The position numbers and the translations under genes are program-made. Of a DNA stretch of 50,045 bases, positions 6,275-35,821 are shown one piece after another. Within the stretch, counting starts at the first letter, position 1. Each line of letters opens with the position of its first letter. Source of the stretch: Blastocystis sp. subtype 4 (lineage: Eukaryota); assembly GCF_000743755.1 (NCBI RefSeq), contig NW_014569545.1, positions 62,001 to 112,045 of the forward strand. The letters run 5' to 3'. The notes under the pieces were generated by a model. That model saw only the letters and a list, made by a program, of their open reading frames with translations, searched no databases and had not been told where the DNA came from.

Positions 6275-6401
6275 TGAATCCTATTCCTTTGTTTTCACCA
6301 AACATTTTGAAGATGAATAGGAGATTCTTTCGCACACAACTGATAATTGAAAGAAAACCACGGGAATTACCTTTCATATATTGTTCCATATCTCGCCGGA
6401 T

Positions 6402-7049
6402 ATGATCCGTATCCTCTGTCAATCACCCTCACTCGTAACTACACCGTATATATTATCTATTATACATGAAGAGTTCTTCTTTGGAAGATACTTTTCGACA
6501 AAGCCACATGCATCTGAGAATTCGAGTCCTTTTCTCTCTATTCCAGAAAATAAACTTCATTTTGAAATTAATCGATATAAATCTGTAGGAGGTGTGGTGA
6601 TTCTTCCACTTCTCACTTTGAGGAAATGCTGCTCCCAACGATATAAACTCACGTGTTGTTGTTTCTTTCAAAGTGGATGAAGCCGATTGGATGCCTGAGT
6701 ATGTGTTAGTATCTGTTTTTACTTTAGGGATGTGAAGAAAGTTTTCGTGCAGCAGCAGGCTGCTCATATTAATAGTGATGGAGTGTTTTCTCTCATTTCT
6801 ACGCTTCACCGTTCCATCGTGGCAAATCATGTAGAAATTATGCGCAAACTCCAGAAGAAAGTGAATCAGGCATGCATATCTTCTGTAAATAGACATACAA
6901 TTGGGAGTATTCCAAGGTCGTCATGATCAGTCATAGTCATCGACCCTTCTTTGAATGAGCATCGTTTGAAGGAAAAGCGAAAACGAGGTGAACTAAGTCG
7001 CAAACGCCGTCGACTCGATAAAGACTATGACCTTGAAGACTTCTTTTAA
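6402..7049 (+). CDS. ICT1/ArfB (mL62)-like peptidyl-tRNA hydrolase homologue, GGQ motif degenerate
   Basis: IPENKLHFEINRYKSVGGNAAPNDINSRVVVSFKVDEADWMPEDVK..HINSDGVFSLISTLHRS..NEHRLKEKRKRGELSRKRR aligns by eye with ICT1/YaeJ; start approximate. Confidence 0.7.
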
Positions 7050-7230
7050 TTGTGTTAAGTGCCACGAGGCGGACCTCTTGTTTTGCATTACAAAACGACA
7101 CCTAACTGGTTCACTAGTGATTCTGGATGACGGGGAACCACACCAAAACCGTTCATAGACAATGTCTAATAAGAGAGGGTTAGGGTTAGAAAGCCTTCTA
7201 AAAAGCTAGCGACGCATGAATGCCGTGAAC
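7050..7230 (-). ncRNA. Candidate telomerase RNA
   Basis: Template CUAACCCUAACCCU (7189-7176), hairpin just 5' of it, H-type pseudoknot 7156-7117, closing helix GUUCAC/GUGAAC, 3' three-way junction 7106-7054, upstream USE-like element; ends inferred. Confidence 0.72.
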
Positions 7231-7280
7231 GTTTCTTCAGTGTTGTCTCTAAGACGGATGACATGAATACCATTTTTTCG

Positions 7281-7290
7281 TTATGGGTTT
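7281..7290 (-). promoter_or_regulatory. USE-like snRNA-type promoter element AAACCCATAA
   Basis: Matches the ACCCATAA-type upstream sequence element of snRNA/telomerase RNA genes in ciliates and algae; 51-60 nt upstream of the predicted RNA 5' end. Confidence 0.6.
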
Positions 7291-7372
7291 TGTAGTGTGA
7301 TTCTTTATAATAACCATAATACCACTTTTCATTCGTTGGTTCTCCCAGTTCTTGCTGCTGTTCTTGTGATAA

Positions 7373-7791
7373 ATGGTGAGTAATCGTCTTTTGTTGAGTG
7401 CAATTCAGGGAAGGTGTTTCTCTTCCATCCGTTGAATGAGGCTTGTGCTGAAGGAATACGTTCCTTATTTGCTTGTAGACCAAGGGTACTTCCTCTTTCG
7501 GTAAAAGACATACGAAGACTCACACGATTTGCAGAAGATGTAATCGTCGTGCTTTCCATATCCAGAAGGGTCGCTGCGGATCTTGTGGTTATCCCGACGC
7601 TAAGATGAGACACTGTAGGCCTCTTGTTGTCTTCTCCTGGTTTTTGGTAGAGTAATCGTTTTGTAGACAACTGGGCTTTGAAGAGTTCTCGCCGTCGTGG
7701 ACAGGGAACTGGACGCATGCGTTACCTCAAGACTATGACTCGCCGTTTCAAGAACGGATTCCGTGAGGGTTCCGAGGCTCCTGCTCACTAA
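7373..7791 (+). CDS. RPL37: 60S ribosomal protein L37 (eL37)
   Basis: ATG | intron 7376-7478 | [39 protein letters not shown].. | intron 7615-7666 | ..[22 protein letters not shown]. Confidence 0.97.
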
Positions 7792-7975
7792 ATGAAAACG
7801 ACTATCGTTAGTAGGCAGCATGATACTGTTTGTTTGTTTCTGAAATGATGATTGGGTCCTGTATCCACGGAAGTGTCCCATGGTAACGGCTACAGTCAGA
7901 ATAGGGTTATAGAGCCACTCGATAGAATTGAAACTGCCTTGCAGTAGTTCTCACATTTGTCTCATTGATTGTGGA

Positions 7976-13277
<5,302 letters not shown>

Positions 13278-34104: not shown

Positions 34105-35821
34105 TTACCAACTCAAGAAGTCCTCTTCATCAGCAGCAGCAGCTGGTTCTTCTTCCTCCTCTCCGAAGTCTTCTTCCTCTTCTTCTTCCACAGGCTTCTT
34201 CGCCTTCTTTACAGGTTTCTTAACAGTCTTCTTACGAGGACGCTCTTCCTCCTCCTCTTCCTCCTCCTCTTCTTCCTCAGAGACGGGCTTTCTAACCTTC
34301 TTAGCAGGCTTACGACGAGGTTTCTCTTCTTCCTCTTCATCATCATCGTCATCATAACGTGAAGCCTTCTTAGCAGGCTTACGACGAGGTCTCTCTTCCT
34401 CTTCCTCCTCATCCTCATCATCATAACGTGAAGCCTTCTTAACAGGTTTACGACGAGGTCTCTCTTCCTCCTCTTCATCATCATCGTCATAACGTGAAGC
34501 CTTCTTAGCAGGCTTACGACGAGGTCTGTAATCATCTTCATCATCGTCATCATCATAACGAGATGACTTCTTAGCAGGCTTACGACGAGGTCTGTAATCA
34601 TCATCATCACTATCACTCTCGCGGAATCGCATGCGCTCAGTCTGAGAACGACCCATAGCACCGTTACGACGAGGCTTCTACATTTCAGTCTCTCCATTCT
34701 CTCCTACCGAGGTCTGTTTGATCACTTCATCATCGAATTCACTCTCCTCCGAATCCTCATCCGAAGCTTCAGGAGTGTAATCATCACGGAAGTTACTGAT
34801 CACAGTCTGTGCAGGACGAGGCACACGTTTGCCAACCTTAGCCTTGATCACCTTGAACAGATCCACAGCCGAGGCACGCTTAGCAGGATCTGCAGTGAGA
34901 CACATCTTTAGCAGATTCACCAACTCGGGACTGTAACGATGACGAGGTGGAATCGTGTACTTGGCTCCCAAAATAGCCAGCTTTCCAGCATTAGCGAACG
35001 GCTGCTTCAGGAACATCAATGTGTAGAGAATGCATCCCAGAGCCCAAATATCGGTCTTCTCCGTGATTTCACTTACACCAAAGAAATCCACCATCTCGGG
35101 AGCACGATACATCTGAGTCGTGTACTTTTCAATCTGTTCCTCTTCGCGATCACAATCATCTTTGTTATTCAGTTTCACAGTACCAAACACCACAGAACCA
35201 AAATCGATCAGTTTCCAACGACCATCCTTGCCCTGCATTACATTTTCCAACTTCAGATCACGATGAACCATAGGAGGATTCTGCTTATGCATGAAACCGA
35301 TAGCACTCACCATATCATACATCATTCCCCAAATATCCTCTTCAGGAAGATACTTCTTATCCTTCTCGAGGATCTTAAGATAGTCAAACAGACCCAGAGG
35401 ACAGTACTCCATCAAAACACGAGCTTCCCAACCACCATACGACTTTCTCTTCTGAAGGGCATACACCTTGGCAACATTCGGATGGTCCTTCACTACACGA
35501 AGCACATCAAATTCCTTGTCCAACAACTTTTCCATCTCTTCTGTCTATACAATGATTTCTCTTTCTTCATAGTCCTACCTTACAGTCCATTCGCTTAAGC
35601 ACATATTCCTTGTATGTATTCTCGTCCATAGCAAGATACACAGTGGCATAACCTCCCTGTCCAATCTTCTTCTTCAGCTGAATTACACGATGACCCATCT
35701 TCAGTCTACCAAGGATCTGGGGCTTTGCTGTCTGTTTCTCAGTGGTCGAGCTCGAAGCAGCTTTATTCGATGATGACTGCGATCCTACCTTCATAGGAAT
35801 GAAATCCTTCAGTTTCTGCAT
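34105..35821 (-). CDS. NAK (AAK1/GAK-like) Ser/Thr kinase with repetitive acidic/basic tail
   Basis: IGQGGYATVY, PPMVHRDLKLEN, LIDFGS, IEKYTTQMYRAPEMVD, KTDIWALGCILY. Confidence 0.9.
34190..34610 (-). repeat. Coding tandem repeat, ~60-nt unit (RPRRKPAKKASRYDDDDEEEE), about 5-6 copies
   Basis: Repeated plus-strand ttcttagcaggcttacgacgagg with tca/tcc microsatellite spacers. Confidence 0.9.

What the first reader, a model, noticed from the sequence alone, without database searches (positions are those of the whole stretch)
7050..7290. Candidate telomerase RNA gene between the ICT1-like gene and RPL37
Seen on the minus strand, 5' to 3': (1) AAACCCATAA at 7290-7281. (2) About 50 nt later GUUCAC (7230-7225), which can pair with GUGAAC (7114-7109) to close a core domain. 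(3) Hairpin AGCUUU-UUAG-AAGGCU (7207-7192) ending 2 nt before (4) CUAACCCUAACCCU (7189-7176), complementary to TTAGGG repeats. (5) Small hairpin UAGAC-AUU-GUCUA. (6) H-type pseudoknot: stem AUGAACGG/CCGUCAU (7156-7149 with 7133-7127, one bulge), U-rich loop UUUUGGU, stem GUGGUUC/GAAUCAC (7141-7135 with 7123-7117). (7) After the closing helix, a three-way junction: 10-bp GUUAGGUGUC/GGCACUUAAC (7106-7097 with 7063-7054) enclosing GUUUUG-UAAUG-CAAAAC and GAGG-UCCG-CCUC. Established: boundary element, template, pseudoknot, closing helix and 3' stem/junction is the conserved telomerase RNA layout, and ciliate, algal and plant TRs use USE-type snRNA promoters. Inference: this is a compact ~180-nt telomerase RNA. 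I cannot tell whether it has already been reported.
Basis: partly seen in the sequence, partly recalled or inferred. Interest (0 to 1): 0.95.

Follow-up and report, generated by a model that had tools for sequence, protein, structure and literature searches.

The report
Blastocystis telomerase RNA gene, previously predicted
This stretch of Blastocystis subtype 4 DNA holds a small-RNA promoter motif, a telomere-repeat template and a predicted telomerase-RNA fold, so it is likely the telomerase RNA gene already predicted in 2021, with a predicted tail junction resembling the activation domain of animal and fungal telomerase RNAs.

Summary
All seven elements sit at the stated coordinates. The window is Blastocystis subtype 4. 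The upstream motif fits the published Blastocystis snRNA promoter element AACCCRTAA and occurs once in the window, 91 nt before a 14-nt TTAGGG template; 0 of 400 shuffles pair them. Boundary hairpin, pseudoknot and closing helix co-occur in 1 of 3000 shuffles. It is very likely the telomerase RNA (TR) gene (0.85). It is probably not new: Fajkus et al. 2021 (PMC8287931) predicted Blastocystis TRs, ST4 included, from this motif and template, without in vivo confirmation. Their supplement was unreadable, so same-locus identity is inferred. Two features are not mentioned for Blastocystis in the passages I read. (1) The 3' three-way junction (z -4.2) matches most of the yeast/vertebrate CR4/5-P6.1 junction consensus but lacks its invariant first A-U pair. 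(2) There is no Pol III terminator: a T5 lies inside the RNA and the next is 1658 nt downstream, hinting at Pol II. No homologue was obtained, so covariation and transcription are untested. The scan noted similar unproven candidates on other DNA.

The parts
7281..7290 (-). USE (snRNA-type promoter upstream sequence element), AAACCCATAA
   Evidence: Fits the Blastocystis USE consensus AACCCRTAA in Table 1 of PMC8287931; only match to that consensus in the window
7054..7230 (-). Minimal structured body of the likely telomerase RNA (177 nt; true 5' and 3' ends not mapped)
   Evidence: ends inferred from the outermost helices
7225..7230 (-). Core-closing helix P1c, 5' strand
   Evidence: 6 Watson-Crick pairs with 7114-7109, pairing probability about 0.58
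7192..7207 (-). Predicted template boundary hairpin (P1.1), 6 bp; holds a U5 run at 7204-7200
   Evidence: probability 0.29-0.41; such a hairpin alone is common, 668 of 3000 shuffles
7176..7189 (-). Template CUAACCCUAACCCU (2.33 repeats complementary to TTAGGG)
   Evidence: 0 of 400 shuffles give a 14-nt run
7156..7168 (-). Small hairpin UAGAC-AUU-GUCUA between template and pseudoknot
   Evidence: Pairing probability 0.73-0.98
7117..7152 (-). Predicted H-type pseudoknot: P2 core 7152-7149/7133-7130 (extendable to 7156/7127 with one bulge), U-rich loop 7148-7142, P3 7141-7135/7123-7117
   Evidence: descriptor met in 14 of 3000 shuffles; base triples are inference
7109..7114 (-). Core-closing helix P1c, 3' strand
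7054..7106 (-). 3' three-way junction: 10-bp stem, 6-7-bp hairpin 7096-7080, AA linker 7079-7078, 4-bp hairpin 7077-7066 (P6.1-like), GU linker 7065-7064
   Evidence: -20.1 kcal/mol, z -4.18, pairs 0.99-1.00; -12.0 on the opposite strand; compared with the Brown 2007 consensus
7373..7791 (+). RPL37 gene, divergent neighbour: ATG 7373-7375, intron to 7478, second intron 7614-7667, poly(A) at 7826 with TGTTTGTT at 7831
   Evidence: PF01907; spliced contigs and poly(A) loose end
6351..7049 (+). ICT1/mL62-like gene, convergent neighbour; its stop codon (7047-7049) lies 4 nt from the RNA's 3' stem (start coordinate is that of the enclosing frame, approximate)
   Evidence: Exon 100% identical to Blastocystis ST4 JH06_1352

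Best explanation
The locus is likely the single telomerase RNA gene of Blastocystis subtype 4: a USE motif precedes a minus-strand stretch of at least 177 nt whose 14-nt tract would template TTAGGG repeats. Shown in the sequence: USE, template, all complementary strands, and no T-run after the RNA. Inferred: SNAPc binds the USE and starts transcription about 45-50 nt downstream. P1c closes the core. The 5' six template bases would be copied to end each round in GGTTAG, and the remaining eight would realign the DNA end. The hairpin 2 nt upstream would stop copying. The U-rich loop would form U-A.U triples on P3. The 3' three-way junction would bind TERT as a CR4/5-like activation domain. Because a T5 lies inside the RNA and none follows it for 1658 nt, transcription is more likely by Pol II in snRNA mode with 3' processing (about 60%) than by Pol III. 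It is probably the same locus as the ST4 candidate of Fajkus et al. 2021 (about 90%, inferred).
For: Organism: exon 100% identical to Blastocystis ST4 JH06_1352; poly(A) 5 nt before TGTTTGTT. USE equals the published consensus and is unique in the window; USE plus template in 0 of 400 shuffles. TTAGGG telomeres in ST1 and ST7, and one TERT in ST4. Boundary hairpin, pseudoknot and closing helix together in 1 of 3000 flank shuffles, 0 of 2478 sampled window positions, 0 of 121 chance USE+template matches in prokaryote genomes (2 dropped as too short), 0 of 110 in metagenomes (3 dropped) and 0 of 3 in viral contigs. Pseudoknot dimensions (P2 4 bp, loop 7, P3 7 bp, loop 6) are at or next to the published plant values (~5, 6-8, 7-12, 6-29). 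The paper reports for Opalinata a pseudoknot with a 1-nt mismatch, P1c and P1.1, as here. 3' domain z -4.18, and much weaker on the other strand.
Against: No homologue was obtained, so there is no covariation test. No Rfam family matches, telomerase families included. The core is not significant by nested folding (z -1.24), and the boundary hairpin and P3 have pairing probabilities near 0.4. The descriptor was written with the real structure in view, so its rates are optimistic. No telomere repeats were found in the ST4 assemblies, so TTAGGG is inferred for ST4. The tract lies 184 nt upstream of a ribosomal protein ATG, where a telo-box could sit. For the Pol II part: a weak TATA-like TATTCAT begins at 7269, I had no Blastocystis U1/U2/U6 promoters to compare, and the TSAR TRs whose polymerase was assessed were called Pol III.
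Confidence: 0.85

Rival explanations
1. It is the telomerase RNA but made by Pol III, as proposed for plant, algal and ciliate TRs. Blastocystis Pol III would read through the internal T5 and T4 runs, and the 3' end would be trimmed from a longer precursor or set by a non-T-run signal. This rivals the biogenesis step only; the confidence is conditional on TR being right.
For: Fajkus 2021 infers Pol III for all sampled TR promoters of early plants and ciliates, and later text generalises this to TSAR. A TATA-like TATTCAT starts at 7269. No Sm site (A-T4-6-G) exists in the RNA.
Against: T5 at 7204-7200 and T4 at 7148 and 7095 lie inside the RNA. Downstream there are only T4 runs (first at 6983, inside the neighbour's coding exon), and the next T5 is 1658 nt away. 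No single T-run threshold gives a ~180-nt product. A Pol II snRNA-promoter TR without Sm or H/ACA has been shown in Lepidoptera.
Confidence: 0.4
2. The tract is a DNA telo-box in the upstream region of RPL37, bound by a Myb/TRB-type protein, and the surrounding folds are incidental.
For: The tract is 184 nt upstream of the RPL37 ATG. Interstitial telomeric motifs bound by TRB proteins are known in plants (their link to ribosomal protein promoters is mainly recalled).
Against: It does not explain the USE on the opposite strand at a fitting distance, the pseudoknot and closing helix (1 of 3000), or the strand-specific 3' domain. Telomeric 7-mers are not enriched in the window (AACCCTA 4, AAACCCTA 0). 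A dual role is not excluded.
Confidence: 0.05
3. It is a USE-driven small RNA of another function, or a non-functional TR paralogue, and the working TR lies elsewhere. In ST7, 3 loci had USE plus template and only 1 was conserved.
For: Chance USE+template loci exist in Blastocystis genomes (3 in ST7). No genome was available to count them in ST4. The published sequence could not be compared.
Against: Chance USE+template loci in my controls never carried the pseudoknot (0 of 234 matches). All stems here are intact, and the features agree with the paper's description of Opalinata TRs.
Confidence: 0.08
4. Chance assembly of motifs in intergenic DNA.
For: The features were picked after the fact; whole-RNA z is only -1.8 to -2.1.
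Against: 0 of 400, 1 of 3000 and 0 of 1000 in three tests on different parts. The USE consensus came from another subtype, independently of this window.
Confidence: 0.02

Closest known systems
Blastocystis (Opalinata) candidate telomerase RNAs, Fajkus et al. 2021, PMC8287931
   Same: Same genus and subtype (ST4-WR1 and ST4-BT1 listed), USE AACCCRTAA, CCCTAA template within 200 nt, pseudoknot with a 1-nt mismatch, P1c and P1.1. Probably the same locus.
   Different: Sequence identity not checked (supplement unreadable). The main text holds no 'P6.1', 'CR4', 'RPL37' or 'synten-', and the passages read do not discuss a terminator or polymerase for Blastocystis. Their Supplementary Figs S2/S3 may show the 3' domain.
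Viridiplantae and ciliate telomerase RNAs with type-3 promoter
   Same: Small size, USE, template-adjacent P1.1, short P2 and longer P3, U-rich J2/3, P1c.
   Different: Those end in a U-rich Pol III terminator, which is absent here. Ciliate helix IV is a simple stem-loop, whereas here the distal domain is a three-way junction. Rfam's ciliate model gives no hit.
Vertebrate/filamentous-fungal CR4/5 (P5, P6, P6.1) and budding-yeast three-way junction (Brown 2007, PMC2094081; Podlevsky and Chen 2016, PMC4993307)
   Same: No linker between stems 1 and 2, adenosine between stems 2 and 3, GU after stem 3, a 4-bp small stem, and, in the register where the second A is the first position, G-C at pairs 2 and 4 and A-U at pair 3.
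   Different: The invariant first A-U pair is missing (the A is unpaired, so the linker is AA). The loop is 4 nt (UCCG), not 5, and an extra G-C pair closes it. No H/ACA domain or Sm site.
Lepidopteran telomerase RNA (PMC11892584)
   Same: Small TR under an snRNA-type promoter, without Sm site or H/ACA domain, with P1.1 and a short pseudoknot; shown to be Pol II.
   Different: It lacks any CR4/5; this RNA has a strong 3' junction. Unrelated lineage; the polymerase here is only inferred.

Membership tests
Telomerase RNA (general) | Template complementary to the organism's telomere repeat, more than one repeat long | tested here: met
   14 nt complementary to TTAGGG; repeat reported for ST1 and ST7, not observed in ST4 assemblies
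Telomerase RNA (general) | Pseudoknot 3' of the template with a U-rich loop | tested here: met
   Sequence allows it; descriptor met in 14 of 3000 shuffles; folding in the molecule not shown
Telomerase RNA (general) | Template boundary element and core-closing helix | tested here: met
   (probabilities 0.3-0.6)
Telomerase RNA (general) | Structure supported by covariation among homologues | tested here: inconclusive
   No homologue retrieved
Telomerase RNA (general) | Expressed as a discrete RNA | tested here: inconclusive
   Only contigs of 5 RNA-type runs were laid; they cannot show absence
Telomerase RNA (general) | Directs repeat synthesis by TERT | not testable with these tools
   Needs reconstitution; ST4 has one TERT
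Diaphoretickes type-3-promoter (Pol III) TRs | Lineage-specific USE upstream | tested here: met
Diaphoretickes type-3-promoter (Pol III) TRs | U-rich Pol III terminator at the 3' end | tested here: not met
   Next T5 is 1658 nt downstream; a T5 lies inside the RNA
Diaphoretickes type-3-promoter (Pol III) TRs | TATA box placed as in U6 promoters | tested here: inconclusive
   Only TATTCAT at 7269; no Blastocystis snRNA promoters available
Published Blastocystis ST4 TR candidate (Fajkus 2021) | Sequence identity with Supplementary Table S2 / TPA entry | not testable with these tools
   Supplement too large to read
CR4/5 with P6.1 (vertebrates, fungi) | Three-way junction with L1 = 0, A in L2, L3 starting GU | tested here: met
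   L1 0, L2 AA (consensus is a single A), L3 GU; strict descriptor met by 2 of 118 permitted junction sites in the window, this one and 23089
CR4/5 with P6.1 (vertebrates, fungi) | First and third pairs of P6.1/stem 3 are A-U | tested here: not met
   Third is A-U; the first A faces G and is unpaired
CR4/5 with P6.1 (vertebrates, fungi) | 4-bp stem with 5-nt loop holding conserved U and G | tested here: not met
   4-bp stem, but a 4-nt loop UCCG; U and G are present at a different spacing
CR4/5 with P6.1 (vertebrates, fungi) | Binds TERT TRBD and activates the core in trans | not testable with these tools
   Experiment needed
H/ACA or Sm-type TR biogenesis | H box in a hinge plus terminal ACA, or an Sm site | tested here: not met
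   No Sm site; no ANANNA in the hinge before the 3' stem. An ACA follows the stem (7053-7051) but overlaps the neighbour's likely poly(A) motif on the other strand

The most novel reading that the evidence does not exclude
Blastocystis has a compact, Pol II-made telomerase RNA that keeps a CR4/5-homologous activation junction with a P6.1-like hairpin. That would place CR4/5, so far traced to the animal-fungal ancestor, back at the common ancestor of opisthokonts and Diaphoretickes, and would break the rule that TSAR and plant TRs are Pol III transcripts.
Probability: 0.2. Interest if true: 0.75.

Novelty: already known. Interest (0 to 1): 0.4.

Why it matters
The gene itself was in all likelihood predicted in 2021 and stated there to be unconfirmed in vivo. 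In my searches that paper is the only one holding both 'Blastocystis' and 'telomerase RNA', and the library lacks most subscription journals. An independent structural case from one sequence strengthens the only stramenopile TR candidate I found in print. The two side observations bear on an open question, stated in PMC9841428: whether the first TR was a Pol II or Pol III transcript. They also bear on how old the CR4/5-P6.1 activation domain is. A ~180-nt RNA with a single TERT is an easy system to reconstitute.

Tried and rejected
No whole genome is held for this window, so USE sites, snRNA promoters, TERT and telomeres of this assembly could not be examined. Rfam gave 0 hits at gathering over the window, and 2 chance hits (E 5.8, 9.6) over 6950-7400; no tRNA. 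Homologue hunts all failed. USE-gap-template scans returned 3 viral loci, 121 prokaryote-genome loci and 112 metagenome loci (the scan stopped after 18 of 64 parts and was swamped by telomere-like repeats). None resembled the locus by nhmmer, so they served as negative controls. A protein search with the left neighbour in genome contigs found no relative. A template-pseudoknot pattern gave one Flavobacterium contig, taken as chance and not examined. Reads: 8 of 21 listed runs were laid, all as contigs. The 5 RNA-type runs (X7, X14, X16, X17, X18; RNA status guessed for three) covered RPL37, and three of them the left gene, but none covered 6996-7435. X7 shows splicing and poly(A), so it may be mRNA-enriched, and the others are shallow; this neither supports nor refutes transcription. 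The sigma-70 promoter/terminator scan is irrelevant to a eukaryote and found 0. Sm-type and canonical H/ACA 3' ends were rejected. Pfam did not recognise the left gene, nor did a single-sequence PDB search. The supplement of PMC8287931 could not be read; it bears directly on same-locus identity and on whether the 3' junction was already drawn.

Full report
Setting. The window is from Blastocystis subtype 4. A 59-aa exon of the left neighbour is 100% identical to Blastocystis sp. subtype 4 JH06_1352. RNA contigs show short GT-AG introns and a poly(A) end at 7826, 5 nt before TGTTTGTT at 7831, the Blastocystis polyadenylation signature (PMC5608401, passages). The finding lies in the 323-nt gap between the stop codon of an ICT1/mL62-like gene (7047-7049) and the ATG of RPL37 (7373-7375, followed by an intron to 7478). 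It is on the minus strand, head to head with RPL37 and tail to tail with the ICT1-like gene.

Observation. Parts of the locus are identical in DNA contigs of three runs from samples other than the possible source. The 14-nt tract is the only telomeric run above 8 nt in 50 kb, and such a run appeared in 0 of 400 shuffles. The upstream motif is not remarkable alone (5 matches with one mismatch against 3.07 expected). It does, however, fit AACCCRTAA, the USE consensus that Fajkus et al. 2021 derived from Blastocystis ST7 snRNA genes (PMC8287931 Table 1). That consensus occurs once in the window, 91 nt before the template, and USE plus template arose in 0 of 400 shuffles.

Structure. Nested folding recovers P1c (probability about 0.58), the boundary hairpin (0.3-0.4), the small hairpin (0.7-0.98), P3 (0.38) and the 3' junction (0.99-1.0). 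The 3' domain is the strongest part: z -4.18, 0 of 1000 shuffles, 10 of 14,284 sampled 53-nt windows as stable. It folds at -20.1 kcal/mol on the minus strand against -12.0 on the plus strand. The core alone is not significant without its pseudoknot (z -1.24). A descriptor for boundary hairpin, H-type pseudoknot with U-rich loop and closing helix is met by the real locus, by 1 of 3000 flank shuffles, by 0 of 2478 sampled window positions and by 0 of 234 chance USE+template matches from three collections (5 further matches dropped as too short). The descriptor was written with the locus in view, so these rates are optimistic. It picks a 4-bp P2, 7-nt U-rich loop, 7-bp P3 and 6-nt crossing loop, at or next to the plant consensus.

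Mechanism. Shown: motifs, complementarity, T-run distribution. From the literature: TTAGGG telomeres in ST1 and ST7, none seen in ST4 assemblies, one TERT in ST4 (PMC5608401 S1 Text passages and S4 Table). Inferred: SNAPc-dependent initiation about 45-50 nt below the USE; copying of the 5' six template bases, with the boundary hairpin stopping synthesis; realignment on the 3' eight bases; base triples in the pseudoknot; TERT binding by the 3' junction. Overall confidence that this is the TR gene is 0.85.

What is known. Fajkus et al. searched for USE plus template within 200 nt and found 3 loci in ST7, one conserved in ST6 and ST9. With covariance models they found homologues in ST1, ST2, ST3, ST4-WR1, ST4-BT1, ST8 and ASY1, and called them unconfirmed in vivo. 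For Opalinata they describe a pseudoknot with a 1-nt mismatch, P1c and a putative boundary element. This locus meets all those descriptions, so it is probably their ST4 candidate. The supplement with the sequences could not be read, so this is inference (about 0.9).

Two features that go beyond the text I could read. First, the terminator. Plant and ciliate TRs end at a U-rich Pol III terminator. Here a T5 lies inside the boundary hairpin, T4 runs lie in the pseudoknot and 3' domain, only T4 runs follow, and the next T5 on that strand is 1658 nt downstream. No T-run threshold yields a ~180-nt RNA, which favours Pol II snRNA-type synthesis (about 60%); lepidopteran TR is a shown precedent. Against this stand a weak TATA-like TATTCAT at 7269, no Sm site, no comparison with Blastocystis U1/U6 promoters, and the published view that TSAR TRs are Pol III. 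Second, the junction. Brown et al. 2007 give the yeast/vertebrate consensus as no linker between stems 1 and 2, an A linker before stem 3/P6.1, GU after it, A-U at pairs 1 and 3, and G-C at pairs 2 and 4 in vertebrates. Here L1 is 0, L2 is AA, L3 is GU, and the small stem reads G-C, A-U, G-C, G-C around UCCG. It matches except that the invariant first A-U pair is absent and the loop is 4 nt, not 5. A strict descriptor is met by 2 of 118 permitted junction sites in the window (this one and 23089), and a narrower motif-plus-junction test gave 2 hits in 200 shuffled windows; both were fitted after the fact. CR4/5 with P6.1 has been traced to the animal-fungal ancestor, with flagellates lacking P6.1 and ciliates having a simple helix IV. 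I therefore say it may work like CR4/5 but do not file it as a member, because two defining features were tested and not met. The main text of PMC8287931 holds no 'P6.1' or 'CR4'; its supplementary figures may still show this domain.

Limits. No homologue was found in any collection (the metagenome scan covered 18 of 64 parts), so covariation is untested. Rfam gave nothing. Transcription is untested in substance (see Tried and rejected). The telo-box rival gets 0.05, because it explains neither the USE nor the RNA-like structure, though a dual role beside RPL37 is not excluded.

Papers seen. PMC8287931: abstract, passages, sections 9, 19 (part 1 of 2), 26, 27, 29, 30; supplements not seen. PMC5608401: passages, S1 Text passages, S4 Table. 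Passages only: PMC2094081, PMC4993307, PMC3603654, PMC9841428, PMC11892584, PMC9498494, PMC12133305 (the 2025 review has 0 mentions of Blastocystis). Searches. SNAPc binding of USEs is; the role of telo-boxes at ribosomal protein genes and the steric limits of pseudoknot loops are recalled. Earlier scan notes list unproven TR candidates in other genomes, one beside a ribosomal protein gene and one with a CR4/5-like tip; I did not test them.

Verdict. Observation confirmed, interpretation supported, most likely already predicted. Interest 0.4, carried by the unvalidated status of the gene and the two testable side features.

Noticed in passing
window 6351-7049 (+), proteins P0001, P0003, P0006: The ICT1/mL62-like protein has GGN where the PDB ICT1 chains have the catalytic GGQ, also in another Blastocystis lineage; it may be a purely structural subunit of the organelle ribosome. 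Pfam RF-1 does not detect it.
   Followed up: partly
window 7047-7060: The neighbour's stop codon is followed by TTGTGTTAAG, a possible variant of the TGTTTGTT poly(A) motif. It overlaps the last pairs of the RNA's 3' stem on the other strand, so these bases may serve both genes. On the minus strand it reads ACA right after the stem, like an ACA box without an H box.
   Followed up: partly
window 7373-7478: RPL37's start codon stands alone before a 103-nt intron, and the second intron is 52 nt; both are longer than the ~30-nt introns of the left gene.
   Followed up: partly
window 7476-7787 in runs X5, X6, X7, X10, X16: Diverged RPL37 contigs (about 15-17 differences, different introns) occur in the same runs, pointing to a second RPL37 copy or a second subtype.
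   Followed up: no
window 34255-34593: A 66-bp tandem array of about 5 copies, apparently coding acidic/basic repeats on the minus strand.
   Followed up: no
window 7950-9400 (+): Next gene has PHD-like, chromo and bromodomain matches, likely a chromatin remodeller.
   Followed up: no
L001:250-520 and L002 (one 122.6-kb IMG/VR contig, both ends): A viral-collection contig carries degenerate TTAGGG-like repeats in inverted orientation near both ends: possibly a linear element with telomere-like termini or a small eukaryotic chromosome.
   Followed up: no
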